The notes: generated from the letters alone by a model not told the origin. DNA of 64,000 nucleotides from Candidatus Spechtbacteria bacterium SB0662_bin_43 (GCA_009839835.1 VXOY01000010.1:4025-68024), one strand, 5' to 3'. Numbered from the stretch's first letter, positions 7,284 to 52,188 are shown. Translations and numbers: made by a program.

Positions 7284-7973
7284 ATGCAGTTTGATATTTT
7301 TACATTATTCCCCGATATCATTGATTCGTATAAGGGTGAGTCCATCATACGGCGAGCCATAGATGCTGGTGTTTTGCGCGTCCATAGCCATAACATCCGT
7401 GACTGGGCGCACGACAAGCACAGCACGGTTGACAATGTTCCGTACGGAGGTGGAGCAGGCATGGTGATGAAGGTAGAACCAATTTATAGGGCGATATGCG
7501 ATTGCTCGCTGTTTGAAATCAAGACAACAGAGCGTGGACTTGTACATAGCGATAAGCAACGGATTATTTTGTTGTCTGCAAAAGGGGAGCGGTTCACACA
7601 ACAAAAGGCACAAGAATTAGCGCAATACGAACACATTATGTTGATATGTGGGAGGTACGAAGGCGTTGATGAACGAGTTACGACCTATATTGCGGATGAA
7701 GAGATTTCTATTGGTGAGTACGTTTTGACAGGAGGAGAGATCCCCGCGCTCGTTCTTTTGGACGCTGTTGCGCGTCTCCACAAGGGCGTATTGGGGAATG
7801 TTGAGTCGCTCAAAGAGGAGTCGTTTACCACAGGTCACCCAAAGGAGTATCCGCACTACACCAGGCCTGCGGTTTTTTCTCCAAAACCAGGCGTGGAATG
7901 GAAAACACCCGATATTCTTTTGTCGGGGAATCATCAGGAAATTCAAAAGTGGAGGCAACAAGATTCTCGGTAA
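7284..7973 (+). CDS. trmD: tRNA (guanine37-N1)-methyltransferase
   Basis: MQFDIFTLFPDI...VPYGGGAGMVMKVEP TrmD signature. Confidence 0.9.
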   Translation: MQFDIFTLFPDIIDSYKGESIIRRAIDAGVLRVHSHNIRDWAHDKHSTVDNVPYGGGAGMVMKVEPIYRAICDCSLFEIKTTERGLVHSDKQRIILLSAKGERFTQQKAQELAQYEHIMLICGRYEGVDERVTTYIADEEISIGEYVLTGGEIPALVLLDAVARLHKGVLGNVESLKEESFTTGHPKEYPHYTRPAVFSPKPGVEWKTPDILLSGNHQEIQKWRQQDSR

Positions 7974-8508
7974 GAGTGAAGAAGAAAGCGGTATGTTAAT
8001 GGAGGGTACGTATGAAAATCCCACACTTTAATTCAGTGTGGGATTGATAGGAGGTGTGTCTTGGAAGTGAAAGTACGCAGTAGAGGAATCGTTGAGTTTT
8101 TGTACTTGTAGCGTGCCACAGATGATGCACTCCAAGATGAGTTTTGCAATGTCGTAAAACGTAAAGGTGCGACATGTGCACCGTATGCAGGACGTTATTC
8201 CTTCTACTCCTCTGAACATCACTTCTCCTTTCTGGTATCAGTACACTGTATTTATACACTATATTCGATGTAGTATCAATTGTATTGATGGTATGTAGGC
8301 GAAGGGGCGAGTACTGTTTTCAACAATCACATCAATCAATAGTACAAGAGTAGATTGTTCGTATGCAAGACATCAAGGATGTGCAGTGCTGTGTGTGGCA
8401 GGGTTCTTGACTTTATATATTAGTGTGTTATTCTATAGATAGTTCTTGAACACAAGACCTCTGCATGTGTTGTGAATACAGGGGTTTTCAAAAGAAAGGA
8501 AGTTTCTG

Positions 8509-22081: not shown

Positions 22082-22249
22082 TGTTTGTCTTGTGGAATAC
22101 GTGTGGAAGGATTGGGTATTGTATATTTTGGTGGTGTGATGTATAATGATTGAACCGAAATGTACAAGGTATATTTTGGTGTTCTTTGAAAATTGAATAC
22201 GAGTAAATAGTTATACAACAACCATTTATAGTTGTTTCGAATATTTTTT

Positions 22250-23707
<1,458 letters not shown>

Positions 23708-24031
23708 ACATTTTTTTGTAGTTTTTTTCTTTTCTCTATCTTTTTTGAAAAGAGGAAAATGAAGTTGTCGACCAGATAGTATGTTTTGTGTAGTAGTGAT
23801 TTTCCATTGTTCTTTGATGATGGAATTTGATCTACGAACACAACACGTACAACAGCGATGAGGCAGGAATGGTACTTTCATATTCGTATGAAAGTACCAT
23901 TCCTTGCCTTGTCTCTGTATGCTGAAATGAGGGAAAGCATTTTCTTTCTCTGCTTGTAGGCAAGCTACACAGGAGTATGAACCTGTATTTCATATAATAT
24001 TCGGAACAACTATGAGTGGTTGTGTAACCTC

Positions 24032-34056: not shown

Positions 34057-34512
34057 ATGGGAAAAAGCGTCCGTTATGATACATCCTTTGGCGTTGTCCC
34101 TGTGTTGCAAGAGCAAGCAGAGTGGTATTTTCTTCTCATACAACACCAGACAAGCGACCCTTCCGAAAAAGGGCACTGGTCATTTCCAAAGGGACATAAG
34201 GAGAGTGGCGAAACAGACATTGAAACAGCAGTTCGGGAATTGAAAGAGGAAACAGGCATCGTTGATATGAGGCTGCACGATGAATGTGTTTTTGAGGAGC
34301 GTTACTCGTTTTGTGTTGATGGCATAGATGTGTATAAAACGGTAGTGTATTTTTTGTGCGTTGTAAAAAATCGCAACGTCGCTATTCAGATAGACGAAGT
34401 TGCAGACTATCAATGGGTTGCGTACGAAGACGCCTTACAAAAAGCGTCTTACGATAACACGCGAAACATTATTACGCAGGTGAATCGTGTTTTGCGCACA
34501 GGAAGTTTTTAA
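34057..34512 (+). CDS. NUDIX hydrolase
   Basis: Nudix box GHWSFPKGHKESGETDIETAVRELKEETGI. Confidence 0.85.
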   Translation: MGKSVRYDTSFGVVPVLQEQAEWYFLLIQHQTSDPSEKGHWSFPKGHKESGETDIETAVRELKEETGIVDMRLHDECVFEERYSFCVDGIDVYKTVVYFLCVVKNRNVAIQIDEVADYQWVAYEDALQKASYDNTRNIITQVNRVLRTGSF

Positions 34513-39937: not shown

Positions 39938-40046
39938 GAGAAAATGCGTTTGCTGGGTTAGTTCTTATGCAGCTGTGGTGTAGTGCGTAATCACACCGTG
40001 TTTCGTCTTTCTTTTGAGTCTCAAAATAGGATGAATGAGTAGGGGC

Positions 40047-40075
40047 TTGCAATTCGCAACCAAGTTGCGTATAAT
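40047..40075 (+). promoter_or_regulatory. Sigma70-type promoter (TTGCAA-17-TATAAT) giving a leaderless transcript, with embedded palindrome (candidate Fur-family operator)
   Basis: -35 40047-52, -10 40070-75, ATG at 40082 (TSS about +7 after -10). Spacer contains cgcaac-caa-gttgcg (40055-69). Confidence 0.5.
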
Positions 40076-40081
40076 ACTAAT

Positions 40082-40513
40082 ATGCTTACAATGATAGACA
40101 ATACGTTCCAAGAAATAAGAGCCCAAGGTAAAAAACTTACCAAAACACGTAGGGCTGTTATCAAGATGCTCTGTCGTTCACATCGCTTACTCACCGCCCC
40201 TGAGATACAGGAAAAGCTGAATCAGCAAGGTATTTCTGTCAATAAAACTTCTGTATATAGAGAACTGGAATTCTTAACGAGTCAAAAAGTTATACAGCAA
40301 GTGAGTATCAGCCCAGGGGTAACTCATTATGAGTCAGCCCTTCGTTCTCACCACCATCATCTCGTATGTACTGGCTGCGGAGATGCTACAGACATTGACA
40401 CGAAAGAGCTTGAAAAACACGTACAGAATATACAGACCAAGGCACAACAGCAAGGGTTCAGAGTACGAGACCATTCATTAGAATTTTATGGTCTGTGCGC
40501 CAATTGTAAATAA
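40082..40513 (+). CDS. Fur-family metalloregulator (Fur/Zur/PerR)
   Basis: wHTH region TAPEIQEKLNQQGISVNKTSVYRELEFL. Metal site HHHHLVCTGCG ... CANC. Confidence 0.8.
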   Translation: MLTMIDNTFQEIRAQGKKLTKTRRAVIKMLCRSHRLLTAPEIQEKLNQQGISVNKTSVYRELEFLTSQKVIQQVSISPGVTHYESALRSHHHHLVCTGCGDATDIDTKELEKHVQNIQTKAQQQGFRVRDHSLEFYGLCANCK

Positions 40514-40538
40514 TAATAATAATTAAATAATCATTACT

Positions 40539-41486
40539 ATGAGAATAGCATTTGTCGGCAAAGGTGGATCGGGTAAAAGTACCTTTTCAGCTTTGTTTTT
40601 CTTACACCTCATTAAAAATAATCACAACGTCATGTGTTTTGACGCTGATTTAAATATTCATGTACCTCAATTATTAGGAATGGATTTTCCAGAAAAAAAG
40701 TCTCTCTCATCAAATGAAAACACCAAGAGAGTTAAGGAGTACCTCATTGGAGAAAGCAAAAAAATCGCCTCCCCAGATTACTTCCAAAAAACCACCCCTC
40801 CCTCGCGTGGTGTTAACCTCTTTGAGCTCACGCCTGAAAATGAGATTATTGCATCATTTACAGAACCTTACAGCACTGGTTATGTAGCTATTGTTGGCAC
40901 GTACGAAGAAGATGAAATCGGGAGAAGTTGTTATCACACTAATTTGTCAATCTTAGAAAACATTTTGACCTTTGCCAAATTACAAGACGAAGACTGGATA
41001 ATAACTGATATGGTTGCTGGTATTGACGCCTTTTCCAATACCTTACACAAACAGTACGACGCACTCTTTTTGATCGTTGAGCCTACACAAGAGAGTATCG
41101 CTGTGTACGATCAATACAAAAAATTGGCGCAGCACGCTGGAATCAACGACCGCTTGTATGTTGTAGGAAACAAAATTGAAGACGAAGACGACGAGCAGTT
41201 TATCGCTGAGAATATTGATGACGGACACTACGTTGGCTCTCTCAAAAAAAGCAGCGCGCTCAAAAAATTGCGACAAAAAGGAGACCCGCTGACACCTGAT
41301 ATCTTTTCATATCTGGATGAATCCCTGTTTGAAAAACTCACAGAAATAAGCAAGAGAATGAAAAAGGATCCAAATACCAGATTAGAGGAGTTGTATCAAT
41401 TACACCTTAAGTATATTGACCAAGATTATATTAGGAACACAGTGGGTGATTTGTCCACTCAAATAGATGAGGAATTTGAGTTTTGA
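40539..41486 (+). CDS. MinD/ParA-superfamily P-loop ATPase (CooC/metallochaperone-like)
   Basis: Deviant Walker A IAFVGKGGSGKST followed by CFDADLN. Confidence 0.65.
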   Translation: MRIAFVGKGGSGKSTFSALFFLHLIKNNHNVMCFDADLNIHVPQLLGMDFPEKKSLSSNENTKRVKEYLIGESKKIASPDYFQKTTPPSRGVNLFELTPENEIIASFTEPYSTGYVAIVGTYEEDEIGRSCYHTNLSILENILTFAKLQDEDWIITDMVAGIDAFSNTLHKQYDALFLIVEPTQESIAVYDQYKKLAQHAGINDRLYVVGNKIEDEDDEQFIAENIDDGHYVGSLKKSSALKKLRQKGDPLTPDIFSYLDESLFEKLTEISKRMKKDPNTRLEELYQLHLKYIDQDYIRNTVGDLSTQIDEEFEF

Positions 41487-41489
41487 TAT

Positions 41490-42923
41490 ATGTATACACT
41501 CACCCCCATTATTCATCCCCAGATACATAAAACGTTGACCGATAAGGAGAAGATGAGAGAACTTCAAAACGCCTTTGGATCCCCTCTGAATCTGATATAC
41601 CCTCAAATCGTTACTGAAAATCTGAAACAGTTTTATGAAGTTTTTGCGTCTCATAAGATCAAGGGCGAAATTCTCTACGCCTATAAAGCCAATAAGTCAA
41701 CTGCTATTCTCAAAGAATTGAGTGTGACGAATTGCAAAATAGATGTTGCTTCAGAAAAAGAGTTGCAACAAGCGTTGTCAGCAGGTTTTGTTGGCGCTCG
41801 CATAGAAGCGACTGGTCCGAAAAACCGTGCCTTTATGAGGTTAGCACTACAGCATAGTGCAATCATCAATCTCAATAGCCCAAGCGAGCTGGAAACAATG
41901 TTGGAGCTACGCGAAGAATTGAATATTTTGATTCCTACCCCAGTCTTTATGAGGCTCAAAGAGTTCAAGTCAAAACAAACAAACGTTATTCAAAAAGACG
42001 TGAAGTTTGGTTTCAGTATCAACGAAGCAAAGAACGCACTCAAAACTATACATACTCATAAAGACAACCTTGATTTTATAGGTTTCTCGTTCCACCTCAC
42101 GAGCACCAGTGAAAAAGAACGGCTCGTTGCTATTGAACAGTCCTTATATTTAACTCTTGAGGCTATCAAACTGGGCTTAGACCCCAAGGGGATTAATATC
42201 GGTGGTGGCTTTAGTATAAATTACTTGGAGAGTAGTACTGAGTGGAACAACTACGTGTCTGCTATAAAAGCCTCTCTGCTTGACCCAACAAAACCCTCAA
42301 TGAGTTGGAATCAGTCAGGATTAGGACTGTGGGCTGAAAATGGAAAAATAAGAGGCGTAGCTACATTTTCAGACTTTTACAGACCGTACAATCAATTTGA
42401 AGAGCTCAATAAAGTGCTCAGCGCGGAACTGCCCACGTTTGGAACGATAAGTCAATTCTTGCAAGAAAATATGCTACACGTGTTTATTGAACCAGGCAGA
42501 TCAATGCTGGATCAATCTGGTGTCACGTTGGCTAAGGTAGGGTCAATCAACACATCTCTCAAGGATGAAACAGTTATTTTTTTGGATATGAATAGGTCTC
42601 ATATTAGCTCAATTGAACTTGAGTTTATGTCAGACCCACTGATTATTCCCAGTAACGCTAATAAAAAAACAAAAGCAAAAGACGGAGTCTTCTTGAGCGG
42701 AAATCTATGTTTGCCGCATGATTTTATCTGTCGGAGAAAAGTATTCTTTCCTTATTCTCCTCAACCAGGTGACATTTTGGCTTTCATCAATACCGCTGGC
42801 TATTTTATGGACTTTACTGAAAGTGAAACCATCCAACACCCGCACGCGTCAAAACTTGCTATTCATTCATCTGGTTGGTCGCTTGATGAAAAATATGAAC
42901 CATCCTTAATCACTAAAAATTAA
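41490..42923 (+). CDS. PLP-dependent decarboxylase, Orn/DAP/Arg decarboxylase family (alanine-racemase fold)
   Basis: YAYKANKS (PLP-lysine block, cf. YAVKAN) and NIGGGFSI glycine-rich block. Confidence 0.7.
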   Translation: MYTLTPIIHPQIHKTLTDKEKMRELQNAFGSPLNLIYPQIVTENLKQFYEVFASHKIKGEILYAYKANKSTAILKELSVTNCKIDVASEKELQQALSAGFVGARIEATGPKNRAFMRLALQHSAIINLNSPSELETMLELREELNILIPTPVFMRLKEFKSKQTNVIQKDVKFGFSINEAKNALKTIHTHKDNLDFIGFSFHLTSTSEKERLVAIEQSLYLTLEAIKLGLDPKGINIGGGFSINYLESSTEWNNYVSAIKASLLDPTKPSMSWNQSGLGLWAENGKIRGVATFSDFYRPYNQFEELNKVLSAELPTFGTISQFLQENMLHVFIEPGRSMLDQSGVTLAKVGSINTSLKDETVIFLDMNRSHISSIELEFMSDPLIIPSNANKKTKAKDGVFLSGNLCLPHDFICRRKVFFPYSPQPGDILAFINTAGYFMDFTESETIQHPHASKLAIHSSGWSLDEKYEPSLITKN

Positions 42924-42928
42924 GAATT

Positions 42929-44227
42929 ATGGTAGCTCAATCAATAACCGATTTAATTGGAAATACACCACTACTAAAAATATCTAAGAACGTTCATGGA
43001 TTACAAAACATTGAACTATACGCCAAGCTGGAATTGTTTAATCCGTGGGGATCAGTCAAAGACAGAACCGCTTGGGGAATTTTGCAACCCCATTTAGATG
43101 AGCTTGGGACAAAAGATGTTATTGAGCGATCGAGCGGCAATACAGCGAAGGCATTGCAGATGATTGCCTCTATCCATGGGAGTAATTTAAAAACAATAAC
43201 CAACAGGATACGAGTTCAAGAAGCAAAGGATGTTCTCACACTCATAGGAACTCAAATCCAGGAACTCCCAGGCAAGAGTGATTGTTACGACCCTCATGAC
43301 CCGAATGATCCTGTAGCCTACATACAGCAGGAGATTGCTCAAAATAAGGATACGTATCTGTATAGCGACCAATACTTCAATGATTTAAACAGGAAGATAC
43401 ATTACGATACCACTGGAAAAGAGATAGTAGATGACATAGGAGATGTTGACTTCTTTATCGGAGGTCTCGGCACAACTGGCTCAACCCTTGGTACTGCCGA
43501 ACGTATCAAAGAACATAGCCCCGACGTAACAGTTATAGGGATTGTTGCTGAGAAGGATGATTATATCCCTGGTATCAGAAACTACGATGAAATCCTTGAA
43601 GTAGGTTTGTTTAATCCTGATTTTTATAAAGACATTGTTTCCGTTAACTCATCAGATTCTTTAGAAAGCATGATGAAGTTAATAAGGTCTGATGGTCTCT
43701 TGGCAGGCCCAACAACAGGAGCATCTTTGAAAGGATCTATAGATTATTTGCAAGAAATAGACACGACCTTAGATACACCCAAAAAAGCAGTGATTATCGC
43801 CTGCGACAGAGTAGAGTGGTATATCTCTTACATAAAGGACAGAAAACCAGAGTGGTTTGGAGAAGCGCGTGAGGAGCGCTGGGATGACAACGTCAAACAA
43901 TCCGCGTCAGTTGATCTTGATGTTGCGACAATCTCAGACTGGATTAAGAAAAACTCACCCTTAATTGTTGACCTGCGCCAGCCAATTTCTTTCAAGACCG
44001 TTCACATCCCTCATTCACTGAACCTACCATATGATAATTTGGATTTAGTGTTGAATACCACAAATCCTTTTCGCACCAACCAAAAAATTCTTTTTGTCTG
44101 TCCTATTGGAGAAAAATCATCGCGAGTAGCAAATTACCTAAAAACAAAAGATGTTGAGGCGTACAGTTTGCAAGGAGGAATCAACGCCTGGAGAGATCAG
44201 AACTTACCATTAGAACGAGATGTATAG
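42929..44227 (+). CDS. Cysteine-synthase-fold (CysK/CysM/SbnA-like) PLP enzyme fused to a C-terminal rhodanese domain
   Basis: IGNTPLLKI...NPWGSVKDRTAWGIL (PLP-Lys block) ... GIVAE ...; C-terminal rhodanese with catalytic Cys loop FVCPIGEKSSRVA. Confidence 0.7.
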   Translation: MVAQSITDLIGNTPLLKISKNVHGLQNIELYAKLELFNPWGSVKDRTAWGILQPHLDELGTKDVIERSSGNTAKALQMIASIHGSNLKTITNRIRVQEAKDVLTLIGTQIQELPGKSDCYDPHDPNDPVAYIQQEIAQNKDTYLYSDQYFNDLNRKIHYDTTGKEIVDDIGDVDFFIGGLGTTGSTLGTAERIKEHSPDVTVIGIVAEKDDYIPGIRNYDEILEVGLFNPDFYKDIVSVNSSDSLESMMKLIRSDGLLAGPTTGASLKGSIDYLQEIDTTLDTPKKAVIIACDRVEWYISYIKDRKPEWFGEAREERWDDNVKQSASVDLDVATISDWIKKNSPLIVDLRQPISFKTVHIPHSLNLPYDNLDLVLNTTNPFRTNQKILFVCPIGEKSSRVANYLKTKDVEAYSLQGGINAWRDQNLPLERDV

Positions 44228-45443
44228 AGTTATGTTAGACATCAAATCGCAATTCCCATTTTTCACAAACCATCCAGATGTGGTGTACTTGGATAGTGCT
44301 GCTACTACTCAAAAACCAAAAGTTGTTATAGATGCTTTGGCTGATTTTTACACGAACGACAATGCAAATGCCGGTAGGTCATCTTATTCATTAGCAAGCA
44401 AACTCGCAACACAGATTGAACACATCAGGGCAGACGTACAGCGCTTTATCGGCGCTCATGACGCCCAAGAAATACTGTTTACTGCGGGTGCGACTGATTC
44501 ATTGAATAAAGTAGCCTACTCTCTTGGCATGAACTATTTACAAGACAACGATGAAATACTGTATTGTCCGTATGACCACAAATCATTCGTACTCCCTTGG
44601 TTGAATGTACAAAAACTTTTAAAGGATAAAGGCATACATATCAGAATGGTTCCTTTTGAAATGACGAAAATGGGAAGCATTGATCGCGAGGACTTATTTT
44701 CTAAGATTACGGCTAAAACCAAAGTAATCAACGCTACCCATATACACAACATTTACGGGGCTGACAGCGATATTAATCAAATCAAAAAACACATTGGCGA
44801 TAAAGATATAATAATCAATGTGGATGCCTCTCAAAGCGTTGGTCATATACCTGTCAATGTTCAGGAGCTCGGAGCTGATACACTCTCTTTTTCAGGACAC
44901 AAAATGTTCGCTGGGCAAGGGATTGGCGTTTTATACATTAGTCAGCGTCTCCAACAGTTTATTCCTCCTGTATTTGTTGGTGGTGGCAATGGCATAACAA
45001 TAAAAGACAGGAATAAAGAAATCAGCAGCTTTACTCAATCGTACGAAGCCGGCACTCAAAACTACGCGGGAATTATAACATTAGGCAAAGCGATTGAATT
45101 CATAGAAAAGGTAGGTATTGAAAAAATTCACACACACCTTGCTGAATTGACCCAGTATTTAGTTAGTAAACTAAGGAGCATAAAAGGTATAGAGTTTGCG
45201 TATGGTCCATATTATTGGAGATGTAGCGACGGTATGGGTATAGTGTCATTTAAAATTGATAAAATCTCCCCTGAAGAATTAGGGTTTATCCTCGCCGAAA
45301 AAGGTATTTTGGTACGTACTGGCGACCACTGTATTAGCACACACGACGAATTCAACGACACCATTCGCGTAAGTATGCATATTTACAACACAAAAGAAGA
45401 CATTGATAAACTTCAAGATGTGTTAGAAAAAATTGTTGGTTAG
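44220..45443 (+). CDS. Class-V aminotransferase / cysteine desulfurase (SufS/CsdA-like)
   Basis: VYLDSAATTQKP N-terminal block, SFSGHKMFAGQGIGVLY (PLP-Lys), HHC-like TGDHCIS. Confidence 0.75.
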   Translation: MYRVMLDIKSQFPFFTNHPDVVYLDSAATTQKPKVVIDALADFYTNDNANAGRSSYSLASKLATQIEHIRADVQRFIGAHDAQEILFTAGATDSLNKVAYSLGMNYLQDNDEILYCPYDHKSFVLPWLNVQKLLKDKGIHIRMVPFEMTKMGSIDREDLFSKITAKTKVINATHIHNIYGADSDINQIKKHIGDKDIIINVDASQSVGHIPVNVQELGADTLSFSGHKMFAGQGIGVLYISQRLQQFIPPVFVGGGNGITIKDRNKEISSFTQSYEAGTQNYAGIITLGKAIEFIEKVGIEKIHTHLAELTQYLVSKLRSIKGIEFAYGPYYWRCSDGMGIVSFKIDKISPEELGFILAEKGILVRTGDHCISTHDEFNDTIRVSMHIYNTKEDIDKLQDVLEKIVG

Positions 45444-45512
45444 GTATGGACAGATTGTATAGACGTTGTATCAATGTACGAGTGTAAGGTATTGGCTGCA
45501 ATGCTACAAGTA

Positions 45513-45541
45513 TTGACTTTTTGACAAAAGTATGCTATAAT
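45513..45541 (+). promoter_or_regulatory. Near-consensus sigma70 promoter TTGACT-17-TATAAT
   Basis: -35 45513-18, spacer 17 nt, -10 45536-41; ~95-nt leader to GTG start with GGGGAGGG SD-like. Confidence 0.55.
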
Positions 45542-45639
45542 ACACATACAGACGATGAGAGATGGGCAAGATGGTGGATGATTCTTACTCTCTCTCTCTG
45601 TATTAGTCACACTGACTGCATCACGGGGAGGGAAAAACC

Positions 45640-46359
45640 GTGAACTTCATCAAAACAGGCTTTGGGCGAGCCTTGATCGCTCTTTCCGTGGGTCTAACAG
45701 CTCTTGTCGGCGTTGTCGCCATTGCCTCGGCAGATGGCGGACAACACCACCCTTCTGGACCGCCAGACTCGTCCCAGTTCGTCTGGTTGACGCAGGACGA
45801 GTTCGAAGAGGCGTGCGACATGGAAGTTCTCGTCACCGTGCACCAGGACGATGTCTATTGGGCGCAACAGGACTACTTTGTGGGTCCTACTACCCATGTG
45901 GCAGGACGCTGGGAACCTGTGTTCTTCGCAGAAGTCGCTCCTGGGGATGATCTGTGTGCCACCGTCAGCGTTTTCGTGAATATGGAAATCAGCCTCTTGT
46001 CCGACGAGGTTCCTGGAGCACTACTGACTGGCAACGAGACCGACTGGTATAGGGCATGCTCACGTCACAGCGAGTTGTCTATCGGCTTGTCTGTTGGCAT
46101 CGCCTGCTGGGGGTACGAACTTATCTTCTTGGGTCTGTATCACGGAAATTTCCTGCATGCAGCCTACCAGGTTCGTCCGCCTGCATGGCATCGCGATCGC
46201 TCGATTACCACGTACTACGGATTCGAGTACCAAGTGGAGAGCTTCACGTTGAGCTACTTCACTGAATTCGCCCTCAGGCAGAGCGTCATCTCAGGTGTTT
46301 CGGTTCTCATCGTTGACGCACGAGACGCCATCAACGAGAGCAGCGTCACGACAAATTGA
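45640..46359 (+). CDS. GC-rich secreted hypothetical protein (GTG start)
   Basis: Signal-peptide-like LIALSVGLTALVGVVAIASA; ~56% GC; no family. Confidence 0.55.
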   Translation: MNFIKTGFGRALIALSVGLTALVGVVAIASADGGQHHPSGPPDSSQFVWLTQDEFEEACDMEVLVTVHQDDVYWAQQDYFVGPTTHVAGRWEPVFFAEVAPGDDLCATVSVFVNMEISLLSDEVPGALLTGNETDWYRACSRHSELSIGLSVGIACWGYELIFLGLYHGNFLHAAYQVRPPAWHRDRSITTYYGFEYQVESFTLSYFTEFALRQSVISGVSVLIVDARDAINESSVTTN

Positions 46360-46452: not shown

Positions 46453-46553
46453 TTTAATGAAGGAGTAGAGATTATTTCTGGTATGGGTCTGCTTGCGGGT
46501 AAAAACTTGTGTTTCCTCACCTGTGCTATTTTAATCAAGAAAATACAGTAGTG

Positions 46554-46625
46554 CTCCCCGGGTAGGATTCGAACCTACAACCCGCTCCTTAACAGGGAGA
46601 CGCTCTACCATTGAGCTACCGGGGA
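46554..46625 (-). tRNA. tRNA-Asn (anticodon GTT)
   Basis: Minus-strand read tccccgg-tagctcaatggtagagc-...cctGTTaagg...-ggttcgaatcctac-ccgggga. Anticodon loop CUGUUAA. No encoded CCA. Confidence 0.85.
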
Positions 46626-49162: not shown

Positions 49163-50286
49163 TGTGTATGGTTTGGTCGTGGATACTATCTTTGAAAAAT
49201 CACGATTGGGTACTGAATGGCGCGTCTTGTGTTGTGATATGTATTGGGTTGCTGTCGCTTTTTAGTGCTGGGACTGACCAGTTCTATAAACAGATTATTT
49301 GGATTTTTTTGGGAGGCATCTTGTTTCTTATAGTGAGTTCGCTTGATTACCGCATTTTTTCTGCTCATTTCTTTCCTGCACTTGCGTTGTATCTCGTGAG
49401 TGTTTTGGGGATTGTTGCTGTTGATCTTGTTGGCATTACTGTTCGCGGGAGCGAACGGTGGATTGATACAGGACTATTTCTGATAGAACCTGTTGAACCT
49501 CTGAAAATAGCGTTGATTTTGATATTGGCAAAGTATTTCTCGGTGCGGAACAGAGAGGTGCATAAGGCAAGAAACGTCATTGTGCCCGTGATTTACTTCT
49601 TTATCCCTGCGTTTCTGGTTTTTCTACAGCCCGACCTTGGTTCGCTCATCGTTCTATTCGGTATTTGGCTTGGGATGGTTATTGTTGCAGGGACAAAAAT
49701 AAGACACTCTTTCGTCATTGTATTGGGTGGAATATCTTTGTCTGTGATAGCGTGGTTATTTTTTCTGTACGATTACCAAAAAGAGAGAATTATATCGTTT
49801 TTGAATCCCTCGCTTGATCCTCTGGGTTCAAGCTACAATGCGATTCAGTCTGTTATTACTGTTTCGTCTGGTGGTTTATGGGGCAAGGGATTAGGGCAGG
49901 GAACTCAATCTCAGTTAGGTTTTTTGCCTGAAGCAACAACCGATTTTATTTACGCAGCAATCGTGGAAGAAATGGGCATTATTGTTGGGTGTCTTATCAT
50001 TGTTCTGTTCTGTGTTATCGTGTGGAGGCTGTGTCGCATAGCGTTGCGGGCGAGGAGTAATTTTGCGCGCATTGCGGTTTTTGGAGTTGCGCTTCTGATA
50101 GCGATACAGGCTGGTTTCAATATCGGTATGGTTGTCGGAATCCTGCCTATTACTGGACTCACGCTTCCGTTGATGAGCTATGGCGGGAGTAGCATGGTAA
50201 CGATATGCGTTGCGTTGGGAATCGCACAAAGCGTGCATAGAAATTCGTACGTAGAGTACGAAAAAACTGTTATTGCGTTGGAGTAG
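49162..50286 (+). CDS. SEDS-family peptidoglycan glycosyltransferase (FtsW/RodA)
   Basis: 10-TM profile with conserved GLTLPLMSYGGSSMV C-terminal block. Confidence 0.85.
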   Translation: MCMVWSWILSLKNHDWVLNGASCVVICIGLLSLFSAGTDQFYKQIIWIFLGGILFLIVSSLDYRIFSAHFFPALALYLVSVLGIVAVDLVGITVRGSERWIDTGLFLIEPVEPLKIALILILAKYFSVRNREVHKARNVIVPVIYFFIPAFLVFLQPDLGSLIVLFGIWLGMVIVAGTKIRHSFVIVLGGISLSVIAWLFFLYDYQKERIISFLNPSLDPLGSSYNAIQSVITVSSGGLWGKGLGQGTQSQLGFLPEATTDFIYAAIVEEMGIIVGCLIIVLFCVIVWRLCRIALRARSNFARIAVFGVALLIAIQAGFNIGMVVGILPITGLTLPLMSYGGSSMVTICVALGIAQSVHRNSYVEYEKTVIALE

Positions 50287-50436
50287 GTGGTTGCCGCGTC
50301 ATTGAAGCACAGAATCAGATAACAGGGGTATTGACAAAATAGTAAAAGTATATTATAGGAAAGGTGCAGATGCGTCACTGCATTATAAAAGCGCGCAAGA
50401 AACCAGTGAGTCGGGTCAGCAAGAAAGGATACAGCA

Positions 50437-52188
50437 ATGTCCGACCAACACACTGTGAGTGGGGGGTCGCAACGACGTCGGTCGGCGTTGTTGTCTCTCC
50501 TTATGCTCTTCACTATCGCAGCACTTGGGCTCGGCGCTTTCGCCGCGTACATGGTGTTGCGGAGCGAGGAGACGCAAGAGGGTCTGCCGCCGTTGACCGT
50601 GATGGTGCAAGACCACGAAGGAGAGCCGGTCAAGCTCGCAACCGTCGCAATTGAGCCTCTGGGCTCAACCGACCGGATGGAGCTTGTTTCCAGGCAGACC
50701 GACCATCGCGGAATGGTCTTTCTGCGCCCCAACGGGTCGTGGGACCAGGACACCGTGTCGTCAATCGAGATGATCGTGGATGTCAACGACGATGGGATGT
50801 CTGAGTACTCCGCAGTTCTCACGCTTCTGGGCGAAGTGTGGGTAGCCAATAAGTCGCATCCCTGGCTGGCTATCACGACCGAGGGTCTGGTGGCTACGCT
50901 GGAGGAAGGTCTCGTGATGAGCGAGGCTGAGGGTGACGATTCAAGTGCTACCAACGACCAGCTCATTGTGGCAGAGGAAGTCACAACAGAAGAGACCGTA
51001 GCCGTTGCAACAACGCAGCGGTCAGGCTCGCGACAACCTCAGTCACAGCAGCCCGCACAACCAGAGACTGTTGCAGCGCAGCAAGAGCGGCAATTCACAT
51101 TCCCAGTGGTTCAGACACTGAGTGGCGTGACCGTGTCGTTCAACTGTGGTGACACTGGGGTGTCGGCAACGCTCGAGTCGTTCGAAGTCCGGCTCAGTGT
51201 CGCGGAGGATGGTCGCATCGTTGCGATTATCACCGTTATTGAGAGCGAGGTCAATCCAGACCTCGTAGGTGAGTCGTTCGTCTTTGATCTCGAGGAGAAC
51301 GGGTTTGAAAGCTCGATTCGAGTTGACGACTACTCACTCTCCGATCTTCGTTCCCACACCTCGTCAATGATCCGAGAGGTCGGCAAAGCCGAACTCGAGA
51401 ATCGGCGAACAGCGATTCTCGAAGCGAACGATTTCCGGTGTTTCTATGGCAGAGCGACTGTGGAGCGCGCAGTTGAGCACTCATGCCCGGGTGAGCTTGG
51501 TGGAACGATTTCCACCACTCCCGTGGTTGTTACTATCAACCGCGACACCATCGAAAACACTCCGGTGATTACCGATGGTGGTACGGCTGGTACGTACCCC
51601 TTGAGTGCCATCACGGTTTTGGGCGATCGCGCTACGGGCCAACAGGACGCAGACAACTTTGCCTCTGCTATCGCGGATCAGGTGGCGCAACATCGCTACA
51701 ACATCGCGCTTGCGAGAGTGAAGGCGCAGTGTCTCACTGACCAGGGCAGCGAAGATGTCGTTGGGCAGGGTGACGACACCCTGCAGGAGGACGACATGCT
51801 TGAGGAGGCCGAAGACGACCTCTTAGAGGCCGACGAGGACACCTCTTCTTCAAGCCCAGGGTCTGGCGCTGGAGAGCCGTTGCCTATCATGGCATCAATT
51901 CAGCGAGTCCAGATGTACGTCACTCTGTCTGATGGCACCAGGGTAGATATGGAACCGTTCGAGGCGGTGGTCGTGATCGACCCCGACCTCATTGTGACGG
52001 CAGCCATTGACAACGCACTGGTCCTGGACATCGTGAGTTACGGGCTTCCTGAGTCGGTGAACGCAAGCCAGGCAACGCAGCGGTTCGCGTTCCTGATGCT
52101 CAACACCTTGATTGCTGTTGAGCGACAACAGCGAGCCGAGGCGTACGCCAGTCTGCATGGCATTACGGACTACACAGTGCCTAAGTAG
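50437..52188 (+). CDS. GC-rich (~58%) membrane-anchored acidic hypothetical protein
   Basis: LLSLLMLFTIAALGLGAFAAYMVL anchor; D/E-rich stretches; AGAAAGGAT leader. Confidence 0.55.
   Translation: MSDQHTVSGGSQRRRSALLSLLMLFTIAALGLGAFAAYMVLRSEETQEGLPPLTVMVQDHEGEPVKLATVAIEPLGSTDRMELVSRQTDHRGMVFLRPNGSWDQDTVSSIEMIVDVNDDGMSEYSAVLTLLGEVWVANKSHPWLAITTEGLVATLEEGLVMSEAEGDDSSATNDQLIVAEEVTTEETVAVATTQRSGSRQPQSQQPAQPETVAAQQERQFTFPVVQTLSGVTVSFNCGDTGVSATLESFEVRLSVAEDGRIVAIITVIESEVNPDLVGESFVFDLEENGFESSIRVDDYSLSDLRSHTSSMIREVGKAELENRRTAILEANDFRCFYGRATVERAVEHSCPGELGGTISTTPVVVTINRDTIENTPVITDGGTAGTYPLSAITVLGDRATGQQDADNFASAIADQVAQHRYNIALARVKAQCLTDQGSEDVVGQGDDTLQEDDMLEEAEDDLLEADEDTSSSSPGSGAGEPLPIMASIQRVQMYVTLSDGTRVDMEPFEAVVVIDPDLIVTAAIDNALVLDIVSYGLPESVNASQATQRFAFLMLNTLIAVERQQRAEAYASLHGITDYTVPK

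What the first reader, a model, noticed from the sequence alone, without database searches (positions are those of the whole stretch)
40047..45443. Leaderless Fur-family-headed operon: metalloregulator - CooC-like ATPase - PLP decarboxylase - CysK-fold/rhodanese fusion - SufS-like desulfurase
Five genes with 4-26-nt gaps or overlaps are driven by TTGCAA-17-TATAAT whose -10 ends 6 nt before the regulator's ATG (leaderless). A perfect cgcaac-caa-gttgcg palindrome in the spacer is a candidate autoregulatory box.

The enzyme set is a sulfur relay feeding a cysteine-synthase-fold enzyme: desulfurase, then rhodanese persulfide carrier fused to the CysK-fold enzyme. It sits beside an Orn/DAP/Arg-family decarboxylase and a metallochaperone-type ATPase, under metal control.

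This resembles neither a standard cys operon nor suf. It recalls SbnA/SbnH-type logic (staphyloferrin B precursor synthesis) and O-phosphoserine sulfhydrylase/persulfide routes. It could therefore make a sulfur- or amine-containing metallophore or cofactor, or be a metal-regulated cysteine/lysine salvage route.
Basis: partly seen in the sequence, partly recalled or inferred. Interest (0 to 1): 0.6.

Follow-up and report, generated by a model that had tools for sequence, protein, structure and literature searches.

The report
Metal-starvation operon for a probable metal chelator
This five-gene operon in a tiny-genome (Patescibacteria) bacterium is real and is conserved across many phyla under zinc- or nickel-type repressors. 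It most likely makes a small metal-scavenging molecule, using a relative of the fungal enzyme that builds the zinc chelator aspergillomarasmine A plus a previously unnamed nickel-chaperone-like ATPase.

Summary
Five co-directional genes (40082-45443) have gaps of 25, 3, 5 and -8 nt. They follow TTGCAA-17-TATAAT, whose spacer holds the perfect palindrome CGCAAC-caa-GTTGCG, and the ATG lies 6 nt after the -10.

The genes are not orthodox cys/lys/suf genes: every curated equivalog score falls below its cut-off.

The ATPase-decarboxylase-PALP/rhodanese(-desulfurase) cassette keeps its order in at least seven phyla. A shorter ATPase-PALP/rhodanese module is common in other Patescibacteria and occurs in some archaea.

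The PALP/rhodanese protein is a full-length homologue of fungal aspergillomarasmine A (AMA) synthase, which is its top structural match. AMA binds only Zn, Co and Ni.

The ATPase is a CooC / ATPase-type-HypB-like protein. An invariant Cys-x-His sits where CooC has its Cys-x-Cys metal site.

Upstream operators are canonical Zur boxes in Micavibrio and Actinomycetota. In Patescibacteria and Alkaliphilus, and in this window, they are a Nur-like TGCAA-N5-TTGCA box.

Actinobacterial versions add a DdaF-like ATP-grasp ligase, an MFS exporter and a siderophore-type binding protein.

Best reading (about 0.5): a Zn (or Ni/Co)-starvation operon that makes an aminoethyl- and/or sulfur-bearing chelator. 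The product, the role of sulfur and the ATPase's client remain unknown. I rate it a new variant of a known kind.

The parts
40047..40075 (+). Promoter: -35 TTGCAA (40047-40052), 17-nt spacer, -10 TATAAT (40070-40075)
   Evidence: Read directly and found by the scan at 10/12. The same -35 / 17 nt / -10 layout precedes the regulator gene in L007 and L040.
40055..40069 (.). Operator: perfect 6-3-6 palindrome CGCAAC-caa-GTTGCG. It is a variant of the conserved TGCAA-N5-TTGCA box and fills the promoter spacer.
   Evidence: It is the only intergenic match in the window. The core equals the S. coelicolor Nur box tTGCaa-N5-ttGCAA (PMC2691836).
40082..40513 (+). Fur-family repressor (143 aa), probably leaderless. 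It has HHHH (residues 90-93), CxxC (96-99) and CxxC (139-142).
   Evidence: Pfam FUR 88 bits. NCBIfam scores are Fur 83, PerR 69 and Zur 45 bits, all below cut-off. A Fur-family gene lies next to the ATPase in 30 of 86 loci.
40539..41486 (+). CooC / ATPase-type-HypB-like P-loop NTPase (315 aa). Deviant Walker A GKGGSGKS (residues 7-14) and invariant C131-Y-H133 (40929-40937).
   Evidence: The profile scores E 3e-24 against CooC1 3kje, with SCYH aligned on CooC's QCYC. The AF2 model has pLDDT 92.7; its top Foldseek hits are CooC1 and then ATPase-type HypB. C-Y-H is present in 87 of 88 loci.
41490..42923 (+). Fold-type-III PLP decarboxylase (477 aa), DAP-decarboxylase-like but not LysA. K66 sits in YAYKANK, H202, GGGF 238-241, EPGR 334-337, C407, Y438.
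   Evidence: Pfam. The lysA model scores 131 bits against a cut-off of 298. The best PDB matches are DAP decarboxylases at only E 1e-13.
42929..44227 (+). AMA-synthase-family fusion (432 aa). CysM-like PALP domain (residues 6-293: K44, SSGNT 68-72, PGIR 214-217), a linker (CD..Y..Y, 292-301), and a rhodanese domain (residues 335-423) with catalytic C391 (44099-44101).
   Evidence: The top four Foldseek hits are 8h4q/8h4h, aspergillomarasmine A synthetase. C391 is invariant in 139 type-A, 29 type-B and 40 fungal sequences.
44220..45443 (+). SufS-like (group II) cysteine desulfurase (407 aa), overlapping the fusion gene by 8 nt. PLP Lys K228 and catalytic Cys C371 in RTGDHC.
   Evidence: Pfam 355 bits. 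The sufS model scores 367 bits against a cut-off of 475. The best PDB match is B. subtilis SufS, E 7e-71. Lys and Cys are kept in all 22 cassette desulfurases.

Best explanation
The region is a single operon that a Fur-family metal sensor represses. The sensor is probably zinc-responsive; nickel or cobalt is not excluded.

How it most likely works:
1. With metal bound, the regulator sits on the palindrome between -35 and -10 and blocks its own promoter. The mRNA is leaderless, or nearly so.
2. When the metal runs short, the operon is transcribed and makes a small chelator from three-carbon amino-acid units.
3. The PALP domain of the AMA-synthase-like fusion forms a PLP-aminoacrylate, most likely from O-phosphoserine, and adds a nucleophile to C-beta.
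4. The nucleophile is one of two things. It may be the amino group of an amino acid, as in AMA synthase and Fda4. Or it may be sulfur, delivered as a persulfide from the SufS-like desulfurase (Cys371) to the fused rhodanese (Cys391).
5. The DAP-decarboxylase-like enzyme removes the alpha-carboxylate of the new amino-acid end. This leaves an aminoethyl arm, as SbnH does in staphyloferrin B synthesis.
6. The CooC-like ATPase, with a Cys-x-His site at the predicted dimer interface, handles the metal. It either passes scarce metal on to or from the chelate or a client protein, or it couples metal status to synthase activity.

What is shown here: gene structure, homologies, conserved catalytic residues, conserved synteny and conserved operators.

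What is inferred: the metal, the substrates, the sulfur relay, whether the product is secreted, and the ATPase's role.
For: Cassette conservation:
- ATPase-deC-PALP/Rhd occurs in the same order in about 29 loci. These come from Patescibacteria, 'Ca. Lithacetigena', Alkaliphilus, Actinomycetota, Micavibrio, Melainabacteria and Bacteroidota.

The fusion protein:
- Its full length is homologous to AMA synthase. The top Foldseek hits are 8h4q/8h4h, E 1.8e-28, with about 460 aligned columns.
- It is 28% identical over residues 14-430 to type-B bacterial proteins. Those are about 50% identical to AMA synthase (E 4e-88).
- AMA synthase adds O-phosphoserine units to Asp, and AMA binds only Zn, Co and Ni (PMC8319579).
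- Fungal Fda4, also PLP plus a rhodanese-like domain, condenses O-phosphoserine with L-Ala (PMC12751119).

Operators:
- The E. coli Zur motif matches with 0 mismatches just upstream of the first cassette gene in Micavibrio L052. It matches with 1 mismatch in L087.
- The Micavibrio in-cassette regulators score best as Zur, 102 bits against 40 for the next family.
- TG[GA]AAAnGnTTTTCA boxes sit at a fixed -72 before the Actinoplanes ATPase genes.
- The TGCAA-N5-TTGCA box precedes the cassette and also znuA, COG0523, yibE/F and cbiMQO genes.

Actinobacterial loci add typical metallophore genes:
- a DdaF-like ATP-grasp ligase (336 bits against a cut-off of 302, plus DdaF at 188-200 bits);
- an MFS transporter;
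- Peripla_BP_2/ABC import genes.

Sulfur:
- A SufS-like or, alternatively, an IscS-like desulfurase (402 bits) sits in nearly all decarboxylase-containing cassettes, with its catalytic Cys kept.
- The rhodanese Cys is invariant.

ATPase:
- CooC1 and ATPase-type HypB are the nearest folds.
- The family's C-x-H aligns on CooC's C-x-C.

Background: Zur control of metallophore clusters is established for EDDS, coelibactin and pseudopaline (PMC6103462).
Against: - No exporter, importer or receptor gene lies near the operon in this window or in most Patescibacteria loci.
- Using cysteine sulfur to make a cysteine-like product is stoichiometrically pointless unless the product differs from cysteine.
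- Characterised relatives form C-N bonds yet keep the rhodanese Cys. The invariant Cys therefore does not prove sulfur transfer.
- The window's PALP domain scores slightly closer to CysM and the lanthionine synthase Fn1220 than to AMA synthase.
- The regulator's subtype cannot be read from its sequence.
- Its operator resembles a nickel (Nur) box, but the protein lacks Nur's His70/His72 equivalents (by inspection).
- All regulatory evidence is computational.
Confidence: 0.5

Rival explanations
1. Intracellular low-metal adaptation with no secreted chelator. The desulfurase, rhodanese and CysM-like domain form a persulfide-fed sulfhydrylase. Together with the decarboxylase they make a low-molecular-weight thiol or thioether, for example cysteamine, or lanthionine converted to S-aminoethylcysteine. 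This compound buffers or mobilises Zn/Ni inside the cell, and the ATPase acts as the chaperone that redistributes the metal.
For: - No transporter genes lie beside the Patescibacteria cassettes.
- The PALP domain keeps the CysK/CysM SVKDR and PGIR motifs. Its best sequence matches are CysM and the lanthionine synthase Fn1220.
- Desulfurase and decarboxylase co-occur.
- Stand-alone ATPase genes with Zur-type boxes in Actinoplanes show that the ATPase has a role independent of the synthase.
Against: - Actinobacterial loci carry MFS, binding-protein and ABC genes typical of secreted metallophores.
- The type-B partner is a close AMA-synthase homologue.
- No precedent is known to me for direct cysteine decarboxylation by this enzyme family.
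Confidence: 0.2
2. Metallocentre or cofactor maturation. The CooC-like ATPase inserts Ni or Zn into an unidentified client enzyme, and the PLP enzymes supply a sulfur- or amine-containing ligand. This would be analogous to CooC with CO dehydrogenase or HypB with hydrogenase.
For: - The nearest structures are the nickel chaperones CooC1 and ATPase-type HypB.
- The metal-site position is conserved.
- A desulfurase and a rhodanese are classical sulfur donors for cofactors (established knowledge).
- The same box precedes cbiMQO in Alkaliphilus.
Against: - No conserved candidate client gene lies in the neighbourhoods.
- No CO dehydrogenase, hydrogenase or urease genes were seen in the loci examined.
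- The cassette occurs in organisms with very small genomes.
- Zur-type control and the metallophore-type transporters fit acquisition better.
Confidence: 0.12
3. An iron-regulated (true Fur) siderophore-precursor operon of the staphyloferrin B type.
For: - The regulator's best curated-model hit is Bacillus-type Fur, 83 bits.
- The SbnA/SbnH-like enzyme pair is present.
- The binding proteins in the actinobacterial loci are siderophore-type.
Against: - All the regulator's scores fall far below their cut-offs.
- The operators are Zur-type or Nur-type, not the Fur-box type, by my recollection of the Fur consensus.
- Co-regulated neighbours are znuA, COG0523 and cbiMQO.
- There are no SbnB, NIS-synthetase or NRPS genes.
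- AMA does not bind Fe (PMC8319579).
Confidence: 0.08
4. Ordinary cysteine, lysine and Fe-S housekeeping genes that merely happen to be adjacent.
For: Domain-level names (CysM, LysA, SufS, MinD-like) are what automatic annotation gives.
Against: - All equivalog scores are below cut-off: lysA 131 against 298, cysKM 162 against 344, sufS 367 against 475.
- Order is conserved across at least seven phyla.
- The metal operators are shared.
Confidence: 0.02

Closest known systems
Aspergillomarasmine A (AMA) synthase of fungi (PDB 8H4H/8H4Q) and Fusarium Fda4
   Same: - The full architecture matches: a CysK/CysM-fold PALP domain, a conserved CD..Y..Y linker, and a C-terminal rhodanese domain with an invariant Cys.
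- It is the top structural match of the window protein.
- These enzymes catalyse O-phosphoserine-dependent beta-replacement.
- The product, AMA, chelates Zn, Co and Ni, the metals implied by the operators here.
   Different: - Identity is only 23-24%. Type-B bacterial proteins are about 50% identical.
- The window protein keeps the canonical SVKDR lysine motif and has a Cys/Asp-rich loop (C119-x-D-P-x-D) that fungi lack.
- It is always partnered with a decarboxylase, usually a desulfurase, and a CooC-like ATPase, none of which AMA synthesis needs.
- Its substrates are untested.
SbnA/SbnH of staphyloferrin B, and the Zur-regulated EDDS (aes) genes of Amycolatopsis japonicum
   Same: - A CysK-fold beta-replacement enzyme is paired with an Orn/DAP/Arg-family decarboxylase. 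My knowledge of SbnH and aesC is that this pairing yields an ethylenediamine or aminoethyl unit.
- Both are under metal-sensor control. Zur control of EDDS is in PMC6103462.
   Different: - There is no SbnB-type dehydrogenase, NIS synthetase or C-N lyase.
- The SbnA model scores 141 bits against a cut-off of 350.
- Here there is also a rhodanese fusion, a desulfurase and an ATPase.
CooC1 (CO dehydrogenase nickel insertase) and ATPase-type HypB
   Same: - MinD-type fold and a deviant Walker A with the signature lysine.
- A metal-binding motif at the same alignment position.
   Different: - Cys-x-His replaces Cys-x-Cys.
- By comparison of the query and CooC1 ranges in the alignments, there is an insertion of about 50 residues after the P-loop region and a C-terminal helical extension of about 60 residues.
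- No CODH/ACS or hydrogenase genes were seen in the loci examined.
- The genes sit under Zur/Nur-type operators.
CysM fed by a sulfur carrier (M. tuberculosis CysM-CysO; E. coli CysM with thiosulfate)
   Same: - CysM is the best sequence match of the PALP domain.
- I recognise the PGIR motif from CysM (from memory).
- The logic of a protein-bound sulfur donor attacking the aminoacrylate is shared.
   Different: - The donor would be a fused rhodanese persulfide charged by a dedicated desulfurase, not a thiocarboxylate carrier.
- The cysM model scores 159 bits against a cut-off of 394.
- Making cysteine from cysteine sulfur gives no net gain.
Zur and Nur repressors of the Fur family
   Same: - The Fur fold, an HHHH motif and two CxxC motifs.
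- The operator overlaps the promoter.
- The 6-5-6 core TGCAA-N5-TTGCA of relatives equals the Nur box.
- Orthologous cassettes elsewhere carry canonical Zur boxes.
   Different: - The window box is CGCAA-N5-TTGCG.
- The protein reaches no curated cut-off.
- It lacks equivalents of Nur's His70/His72 (by inspection).

Membership tests
Fur family (PF01475) | Match to the family model above the gathering score | tested here: met
   88.4 bits against a cut-off of 23.1, covering profile positions 2-121 of 121.
Zur subfamily | Best match to a curated Zur model, above its cut-off | tested here: not met
   The window protein scores Zur 45 bits (cut-off 167), Fur 83 and PerR 69. The Micavibrio in-cassette regulators do score best as Zur (102 bits), but also below cut-off.
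Zur subfamily | Operator of a recognised Zur-box type upstream of zinc-uptake-type genes | tested here: inconclusive
   Canonical Zur motifs precede orthologous cassettes in Micavibrio/L087 and Actinomycetota. The Patescibacteria-type box also precedes znuA and COG0523 genes. The window's own box is of the 6-5-6 Nur-like form.
Zur subfamily | Zinc-dependent DNA binding | not testable with these tools
   Needs EMSA or a reporter assay.
Nur subfamily (nickel) | 6-5-6 box tTGCaa-N5-ttGCAA | tested here: inconclusive
   Relatives carry TGCAA-N5-TTGCA. The window has CGCAA-N5-TTGCG, with one symmetric change per half-site. The consensus is from PMC2691836.
Nur subfamily (nickel) | Ni-site histidines (His70, His72 in the S1-S2 sheet; His126) | tested here: not met
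   By inspection, the window's S1-S2 region 'VSISPGVTHYES' has no HxH. Some type-B regulators have RHxHxHYE there. No formal alignment to Nur was possible.
CooC (CODH nickel-insertion ATPase) | MinD-type fold with deviant Walker A (GKGGxGK[ST]) | tested here: met
   GKGGSGKS is invariant. CooC1 is the top hit by profile (E 3e-24) and by fold.
CooC (CODH nickel-insertion ATPase) | Cys-x-Cys metal site at the dimer interface | tested here: not met
   The aligned motif is Cys-Tyr-His. It is invariant in 87 of 88 loci.
CooC (CODH nickel-insertion ATPase) | Genomic association with CODH/ACS | tested here: not met
   No CODH/ACS genes were seen among the recurrent neighbour clusters or in the Pfam-annotated loci. 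Not every neighbour was annotated.
LysA (diaminopimelate decarboxylase) | Score above the equivalog cut-off | tested here: not met
   TIGR01048 scores 131 bits against 297.9. PDB DAP decarboxylases reach only E 1e-13 over the N-terminal domain.
Orn/DAP/Arg decarboxylase fold-type III | PLP lysine, His, Gly-rich loop, EPGR, catalytic Cys and Tyr | tested here: met
   K66, H202, GGGF, EPGR, C407 and Y438 are invariant in four distant members. Assignment of roles is from my knowledge of the family.
CysK/CysM cysteine synthase | Score above the subfamily or equivalog cut-offs | tested here: not met
   cysKM 162 against 344; cysM 159 against 394; cysK 129 against 351.
SbnA | Score above the equivalog cut-off | tested here: not met
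   TIGR03945 scores 141 against 350.
AMA synthase / Fda4-type PALP-rhodanese enzymes | Single chain with PALP domain, conserved linker and C-terminal rhodanese carrying Cys | tested here: met
   Shared columns are K44, SSGN, PG-x-R217, D293, Y298, Y301, D348, R350, C391 and G394 across 139 type-A, 29 type-B and 40 fungal sequences. The top Foldseek hits are 8h4q/8h4h over both domains.
AMA synthase / Fda4-type PALP-rhodanese enzymes | O-phosphoserine plus an amino-acid amine gives a C-N bond | not testable with these tools
   Needs an enzyme assay.
SufS (group II cysteine desulfurase) | Score above the subfamily cut-off | tested here: not met
   TIGR01979 scores 367 against 475, although B. 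subtilis SufS is the best PDB match, E 7e-71.
SufS (group II cysteine desulfurase) | PLP lysine and catalytic cysteine (RxGxHC) | tested here: met
   K228 and C371 are invariant in the cassette desulfurases.
SufS (group II cysteine desulfurase) | Adjacent SufE/SufU acceptor and SufBCD | tested here: not met
   None are present in the operon or its flanks. The fused rhodanese is the only candidate acceptor.
Aminopolycarboxylate-type metallophore gene cluster | Beta-replacement enzyme plus decarboxylase, together with export and import genes, under a metal sensor | tested here: inconclusive
   The enzymes and the sensor are present in the window. Export and import genes appear only in actinobacterial relatives. 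No product is known.

The most novel reading that the evidence does not exclude
The CooC-like Cys-x-His ATPase together with an AMA-synthase-family enzyme forms a previously unrecognised metal-starvation module. It occurs in Patescibacteria, several other bacterial phyla and some archaea. If so, aspergillomarasmine-like aminopolycarboxylates, known only from fungi, would be widespread prokaryotic zinc or nickel scavengers. The window's four-enzyme version would make a new decarboxylated, possibly sulfur-containing, derivative, whose metal is handed over by a new class of NTPase metallochaperone.
Probability: 0.35. Interest if true: 0.85.

Novelty: new variant of a known kind. Interest (0 to 1): 0.68.

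Why it matters
- AMA is under study as an inhibitor of NDM-type metallo-beta-lactamases because it strips zinc. Finding its synthase family under zinc/nickel sensors in bacteria and archaea would give AMA-like compounds a natural role as zincophores or nickelophores, and a large pool of biocatalysts.
- The ATPase would be a second family of zinc-starvation NTPases alongside COG0523. Its conserved genetic partner makes its function testable.
- Patescibacteria have almost no biosynthesis. A retained and horizontally traded four-enzyme pathway implies that metal scavenging matters to their episymbiotic life.
- The conserved promoter, operator and leaderless-start design gives a first regulon motif for these uncultured organisms.

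Tried and rejected
- **Literature.** None found a paper describing this cassette or the ATPase family. PDB codes 8H4H/8H4Q are not in the library; their identity came from the fold-search description. One search was wasted on the prefix 'AMAS', and one search repeated.
- **Mis-specified pattern.** A first box pattern with N5 between 5-mers gave 0 hits and was corrected to N3.
- **Regulon within the window.** The three other pattern hits (10486, 11354, 25747) are intragenic and lack the AT flanks. tblastn found no znuA, COG0523, yibE/F or type-B gene in the window.
- **Orthodox CysK/LysA/SufS.** Rejected on curated cut-offs.
- **Fe-S scaffold role for the ATPase (ApbC/Nbp35-like).** There is only one invariant Cys, and the nearest folds are nickel chaperones.
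- **Serine kinase or carboxylate-activating role for the ATPase (BioD/CobQ-like).** Less likely. The family has the dimer-type signature lysine and the CooC metal-site position, and Actinoplanes has stand-alone Zur-box copies.
- **Cyanide detoxification (beta-cyanoalanine synthase plus rhodanese).** This does not explain the decarboxylase, the metal operators or the transporters.
- **Selenium metabolism.** No selD or related genes were seen in the loci examined.
- **Zinc-independent replacement of a zinc enzyme (SufU, CysRS, DapE).** No matching missing function was found, and it does not explain the actinobacterial transport and ligase genes.
- **ORF calling in high-GC Actinoplanes loci.** It failed with the simple longest-ORF method and was redone with a GC3 filter.

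Full report
**1. The observation**

The window comes from a Patescibacteria-type genome. It carries a 16S rRNA gene at 22246-23718, and the closest homologues of the operon proteins are labelled Patescibacteria.

At 40047-40075 the sequence reads TTGCAA, a 17-nt spacer, then TATAAT. The spacer contains CGCAAC-caa-GTTGCG (40055-40069). The first ATG of a 143-aa ORF lies 6 nt after the -10.

Five ORFs follow on the + strand, separated by 25, 3, 5 and -8 nt. None of the four downstream genes has an evident Shine-Dalgarno sequence. A separate strong promoter-like site at 45513-45541 serves the next gene.

Pfam confirms FUR, a CbiA/ParA-type P-loop, Orn_Arg_deC_N, PALP plus Rhodanese, and Aminotran_5.

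The promoter match by itself is not significant (12 sites found against 15.4 expected). The palindrome is rare: 0.46% of 17-nt windows hold one, or 0.04% with G/C-rich arms. It is also conserved, as section 4 shows.

**2. These are not housekeeping genes**

Every curated equivalog model scores below its cut-off:
- lysA, 131 against 298
- cysKM, 162 against 344
- cysM, 159 against 394
- SbnA, 141 against 350
- sufS, 367 against 475
- Fur, 83 against 220
- Zur, 45 against 167

The ATPase matches no curated family. Public sources call its homologues 'CO dehydrogenase maturation factor', 'iron-sulfur cluster carrier protein' or 'hypothetical'.

**3. Synteny**

Contigs encoding homologues of the fusion protein carry ATPase-decarboxylase-fusion-desulfurase in the same order. 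This holds in Alkaliphilus metalliredigens QYMF, other Patescibacteria and a 3.7-Mb genome, and in further metagenomic contigs.

A scan of species-representative genomes with an ATPase alignment found at least 534 loci, of which 80 were retrieved. tblastn and clustering show two recurrent designs.

*Type A*, which includes this window, is [Fur]-ATPase-deC-PALP/Rhd(~435 aa)-desulfurase. It occurs in:
- Patescibacteria
- 'Ca. Lithacetigena'
- Alkaliphilus
- Micromonospora and other Actinomycetota
- Bacteroidota

In Micavibrio and Melainabacteria the desulfurase lies first and belongs to the IscS lineage (402 bits) instead of the SufS lineage.

*Type B* is [Fur]-ATPase-PALP/Rhd(~490 aa). It occurs in:
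- Saccharibacteria
- Paceibacteria
- Peribacteria
- Kapaibacteria
- Gammaproteobacteria MAGs
- two archaeal MAGs

Further points:
- A Fur-family gene is adjacent in 30 of 86 loci.
- Actinoplanes carries the ATPase alone.
- The decarboxylase and a desulfurase almost always occur together.
- The operon's G+C (0.38-0.41) is below that of its flanks, and a 75%-identical cassette sits in a different phylum (L008). Both facts suggest horizontal spread.

**4. Regulation**

Upstream regions share operators. In Patescibacteria, a gammaproteobacterial MAG and Alkaliphilus, the box is aTGCAA-N5-TTGCAt.
- The degenerate pattern is about 12-fold enriched near the ATPase or Fur promoters (28 hits in 42.7 kb against 76 in 1372 kb).
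- In L006, L015 and L040 the box fills the -35/-10 spacer.
- L040 and L007 reproduce the window's whole layout, including the 6-7 nt between the -10 and the regulator's ATG. L007 has the window's own CGCAAC/GTTGCG half-sites.
- The same box precedes znuA (twice), a COG0523 gene and yibE/F genes. In Alkaliphilus it precedes both the cassette and cbiMQO.
- Its core equals the Nur box of S. coelicolor, tTGCaa-N5-ttGCAA. Nur is the nickel sensor that controls the nik transporters (PMC2691836).
- The window regulator lacks equivalents of Nur's nickel-site His70/His72, by inspection.

In other phyla the operators are zinc-type.
- The E. coli Zur motif TRWNAYRWTATAWYRTNWCA (PMC6103462) matches with 0 mismatches directly upstream of the first cassette gene in Micavibrio L052.
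- It matches with 1 mismatch in L087, before the cassette and beside its FUR gene, and with 2 mismatches in L080.
- The Micavibrio in-cassette regulators score best as Zur.
- Actinoplanes ATPase genes have TG[GA]AAAnGnTTTTCA at a fixed position of about -72. Similar boxes lie before cassette or transporter genes in L004, L030, L053, L063 and L088. That this is the actinobacterial Zur consensus is my recollection.

I conclude that the cassette is a member of zinc-starvation regulons in several phyla. In the window's lineage it sits in a regulon with a Nur-like operator. Zinc is the most likely signal here, and nickel or cobalt is not excluded.

**5. The fusion enzyme**

- Type-B proteins match PDB 8h4h/8h4q at E 4e-88 and about 50% identity.
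- The fold search identifies those entries as aspergillomarasmine A synthetase, apo and with O-phosphoserine. They are also the top four structural matches of the AlphaFold model of the window protein (pLDDT 90.4), covering both domains.
- The window protein aligns with a type-B protein over residues 14-430 (28% identity, E 3e-40).
- An alignment of 139 type-A, 29 type-B and 40 fungal sequences shares the PLP lysine, SSG(N/S)T, PG-x-R, a CD..Y..Y linker and the rhodanese D, R, C and G residues. The rhodanese Cys is invariant in all three groups.
- From the literature, AMA synthase alone builds AMA by adding O-phosphoserine units to aspartate, and AMA binds only Zn, Co and Ni (PMC8319579). Fda4, also PLP plus a rhodanese-like domain, joins O-phosphoserine to L-alanine (PMC12751119).
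- The window protein differs in keeping the CysK/CysM SVKDR motif. By sequence it scores slightly closer to CysM and the lanthionine synthase Fn1220.
- Bacterial members have an invariant Cys in a Cys/Asp-rich loop where fungi have Gln.

**6. The ATPase**

- A four-sequence profile matches CooC1 at E 3e-24. It places the family's S-C-Y-H on CooC's Q-C-Y-C, the Cys-x-Cys nickel/zinc site by my knowledge of CooC1.
- C-Y-H is present in 87 of 88 loci, and the deviant Walker A is invariant.
- The AlphaFold model (pLDDT 92.7, pTM 0.92) is nearest to CooC1 and then to ATPase-type HypB. Both are nickel chaperones. Nitrogenase Fe protein and MinD follow.
- The family has 147 representative clusters at E <= 1e-30.

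**7. The other enzymes**

- The decarboxylase keeps all the catalytic residues of its fold but is far from LysA.
- The desulfurase is closest to B. subtilis SufS and keeps the PLP Lys and catalytic Cys. So do the IscS-type substitutes.
- Recruitment of two non-orthologous desulfurases argues that persulfide generation itself is needed. The fused rhodanese is the obvious acceptor. This is an inference from the well-known desulfurase-to-rhodanese relays.

**8. Wider context**

- In Micromonospora and related loci the cassette continues with an ATP-grasp ligase (NF005543, 336 bits against a cut-off of 302). That ligase is related to dapdiamide synthase DdaF, which by my knowledge acts on a diaminopropionate derivative.
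- The same loci also carry an MFS transporter and Peripla_BP_2/ABC import genes.
- A Cryomorphaceae locus lacks the ATPase. It adds a FAD amine oxidase and an acetyltransferase-like protein, recalling fungal fda3 and fda5, and lies near FUR and a ZIP transporter.
- Zur control of metallophore clusters (EDDS, coelibactin, pseudopaline) is established (PMC6103462).

**9. Interpretation**

The best-supported reading is a metal-starvation operon that makes a small chelator of the aminopolycarboxylate or aminoethyl type, possibly carrying sulfur, with a new CooC-like NTPase handling the metal.

Weak points:
- No transport genes lie near the Patescibacteria cassettes.
- The role of sulfur is unresolved. 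A cysteine-to-cysteine relay would be futile, and the characterised relatives make C-N bonds.
- The sensor's metal is uncertain.
- All regulatory evidence is computational.

The rival readings are an intracellular thiol or thioether for metal buffering, cofactor maturation, an iron siderophore, and chance adjacency. They are ranked in the Rival explanations section, and chance adjacency is excluded.

**10. Novelty**

Ten full-text searches found no description of this cassette, of bacterial AMA-synthase homologues under Zur/Nur control, or of the Cys-x-His ATPase family. The library is incomplete, so prior work cannot be ruled out.

The kind of system, a Zur-type-regulated metallophore pathway with SbnA/SbnH logic, is known. 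The component set and its distribution are not. I therefore rate it a new variant of a known kind.

Noticed in passing
window 34285-34377: ARAGORN calls a 93-nt tRNA-Ile(gat) here. Rfam finds no tRNA match, even at E <= 1. The call is either false or an unusual, intron-bearing tRNA.
   Followed up: partly
window 22246-23718: A complete 16S rRNA gene stands alone. No 23S or 5S gene lies anywhere in the 64 kb, so the rRNA genes are unlinked.
   Followed up: no
window ~50000-52000: A G+C-rich island (0.57, against about 0.44 around it) overlaps ORF 50437-52188, 583 aa.
   Followed up: no
window 40000-45500 and 46553-46625: The operon's G+C is 0.38-0.41 against 0.44-0.52 in the flanks. A tRNA-Asn gene lies 1.1 kb downstream. 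A 64-75%-identical cassette occurs in 'Ca. Lithacetigena' (L008). In L007 the cassette is followed by a COG0523 gene and a serine recombinase. Together these point to horizontal transfer.
   Followed up: partly
window 45513-45640: A strong promoter-like site, TTGACT-17-(TG)TATAAT, and a (CT)6 run precede ORF 45640-46359. That ORF has a signal-peptide-like N-terminus.
   Followed up: no
window 40514-40538: The spacer between the Fur-family gene and the ATPase gene is an (AAT)5-rich stretch. None of the four downstream genes has an obvious Shine-Dalgarno sequence.
   Followed up: no
window 43283-43312 (fusion protein residues 119-128): A family-specific loop, C-x-D-P-x-D-P-N-D-P, has an invariant Cys in bacterial type-A and type-B proteins but Gln in fungal AMA synthases. 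Fungi also lack the ATPase partner. The loop has low model confidence. It may be a metal-binding or docking site.
   Followed up: partly
L011, L017, L020, L044, L057, L058, L072 (near 7300-8500): A YibE/F-family membrane protein with a His-rich tail lies beside the Fur-ATPase pair in seven Patescibacteria loci. In two of them it is preceded by the same box. It is a candidate metal transporter of this regulon.
   Followed up: partly
L001 10753 and 5530 (Alkaliphilus metalliredigens): The TGCAA-N5-TTGCA box precedes both the cassette and the downstream cbiM-cbiQ-cbiO (Ni/Co ECF importer) genes. This suggests a nickel/cobalt-type regulon in this cultured Firmicute.
   Followed up: partly
L088 7488-16700 (Cryomorphaceae MAG): A cassette variant lacks the ATPase. 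The decarboxylase, fusion and desulfurase are followed by a FAD amine oxidase, an acetyltransferase-like protein, an unknown 490-aa protein and a methyltransferase. FUR and a ZIP transporter lie nearby. The arrangement resembles the fungal fda3/4/5 module.
   Followed up: partly
L052 6653-7804, L076 6649-7734 (Micavibrio): A membrane protein with a very His-rich segment (HEGHDMPEGGHDGHHQNHDGHHGHH) lies just upstream of the Zur box and the cassette.
   Followed up: no
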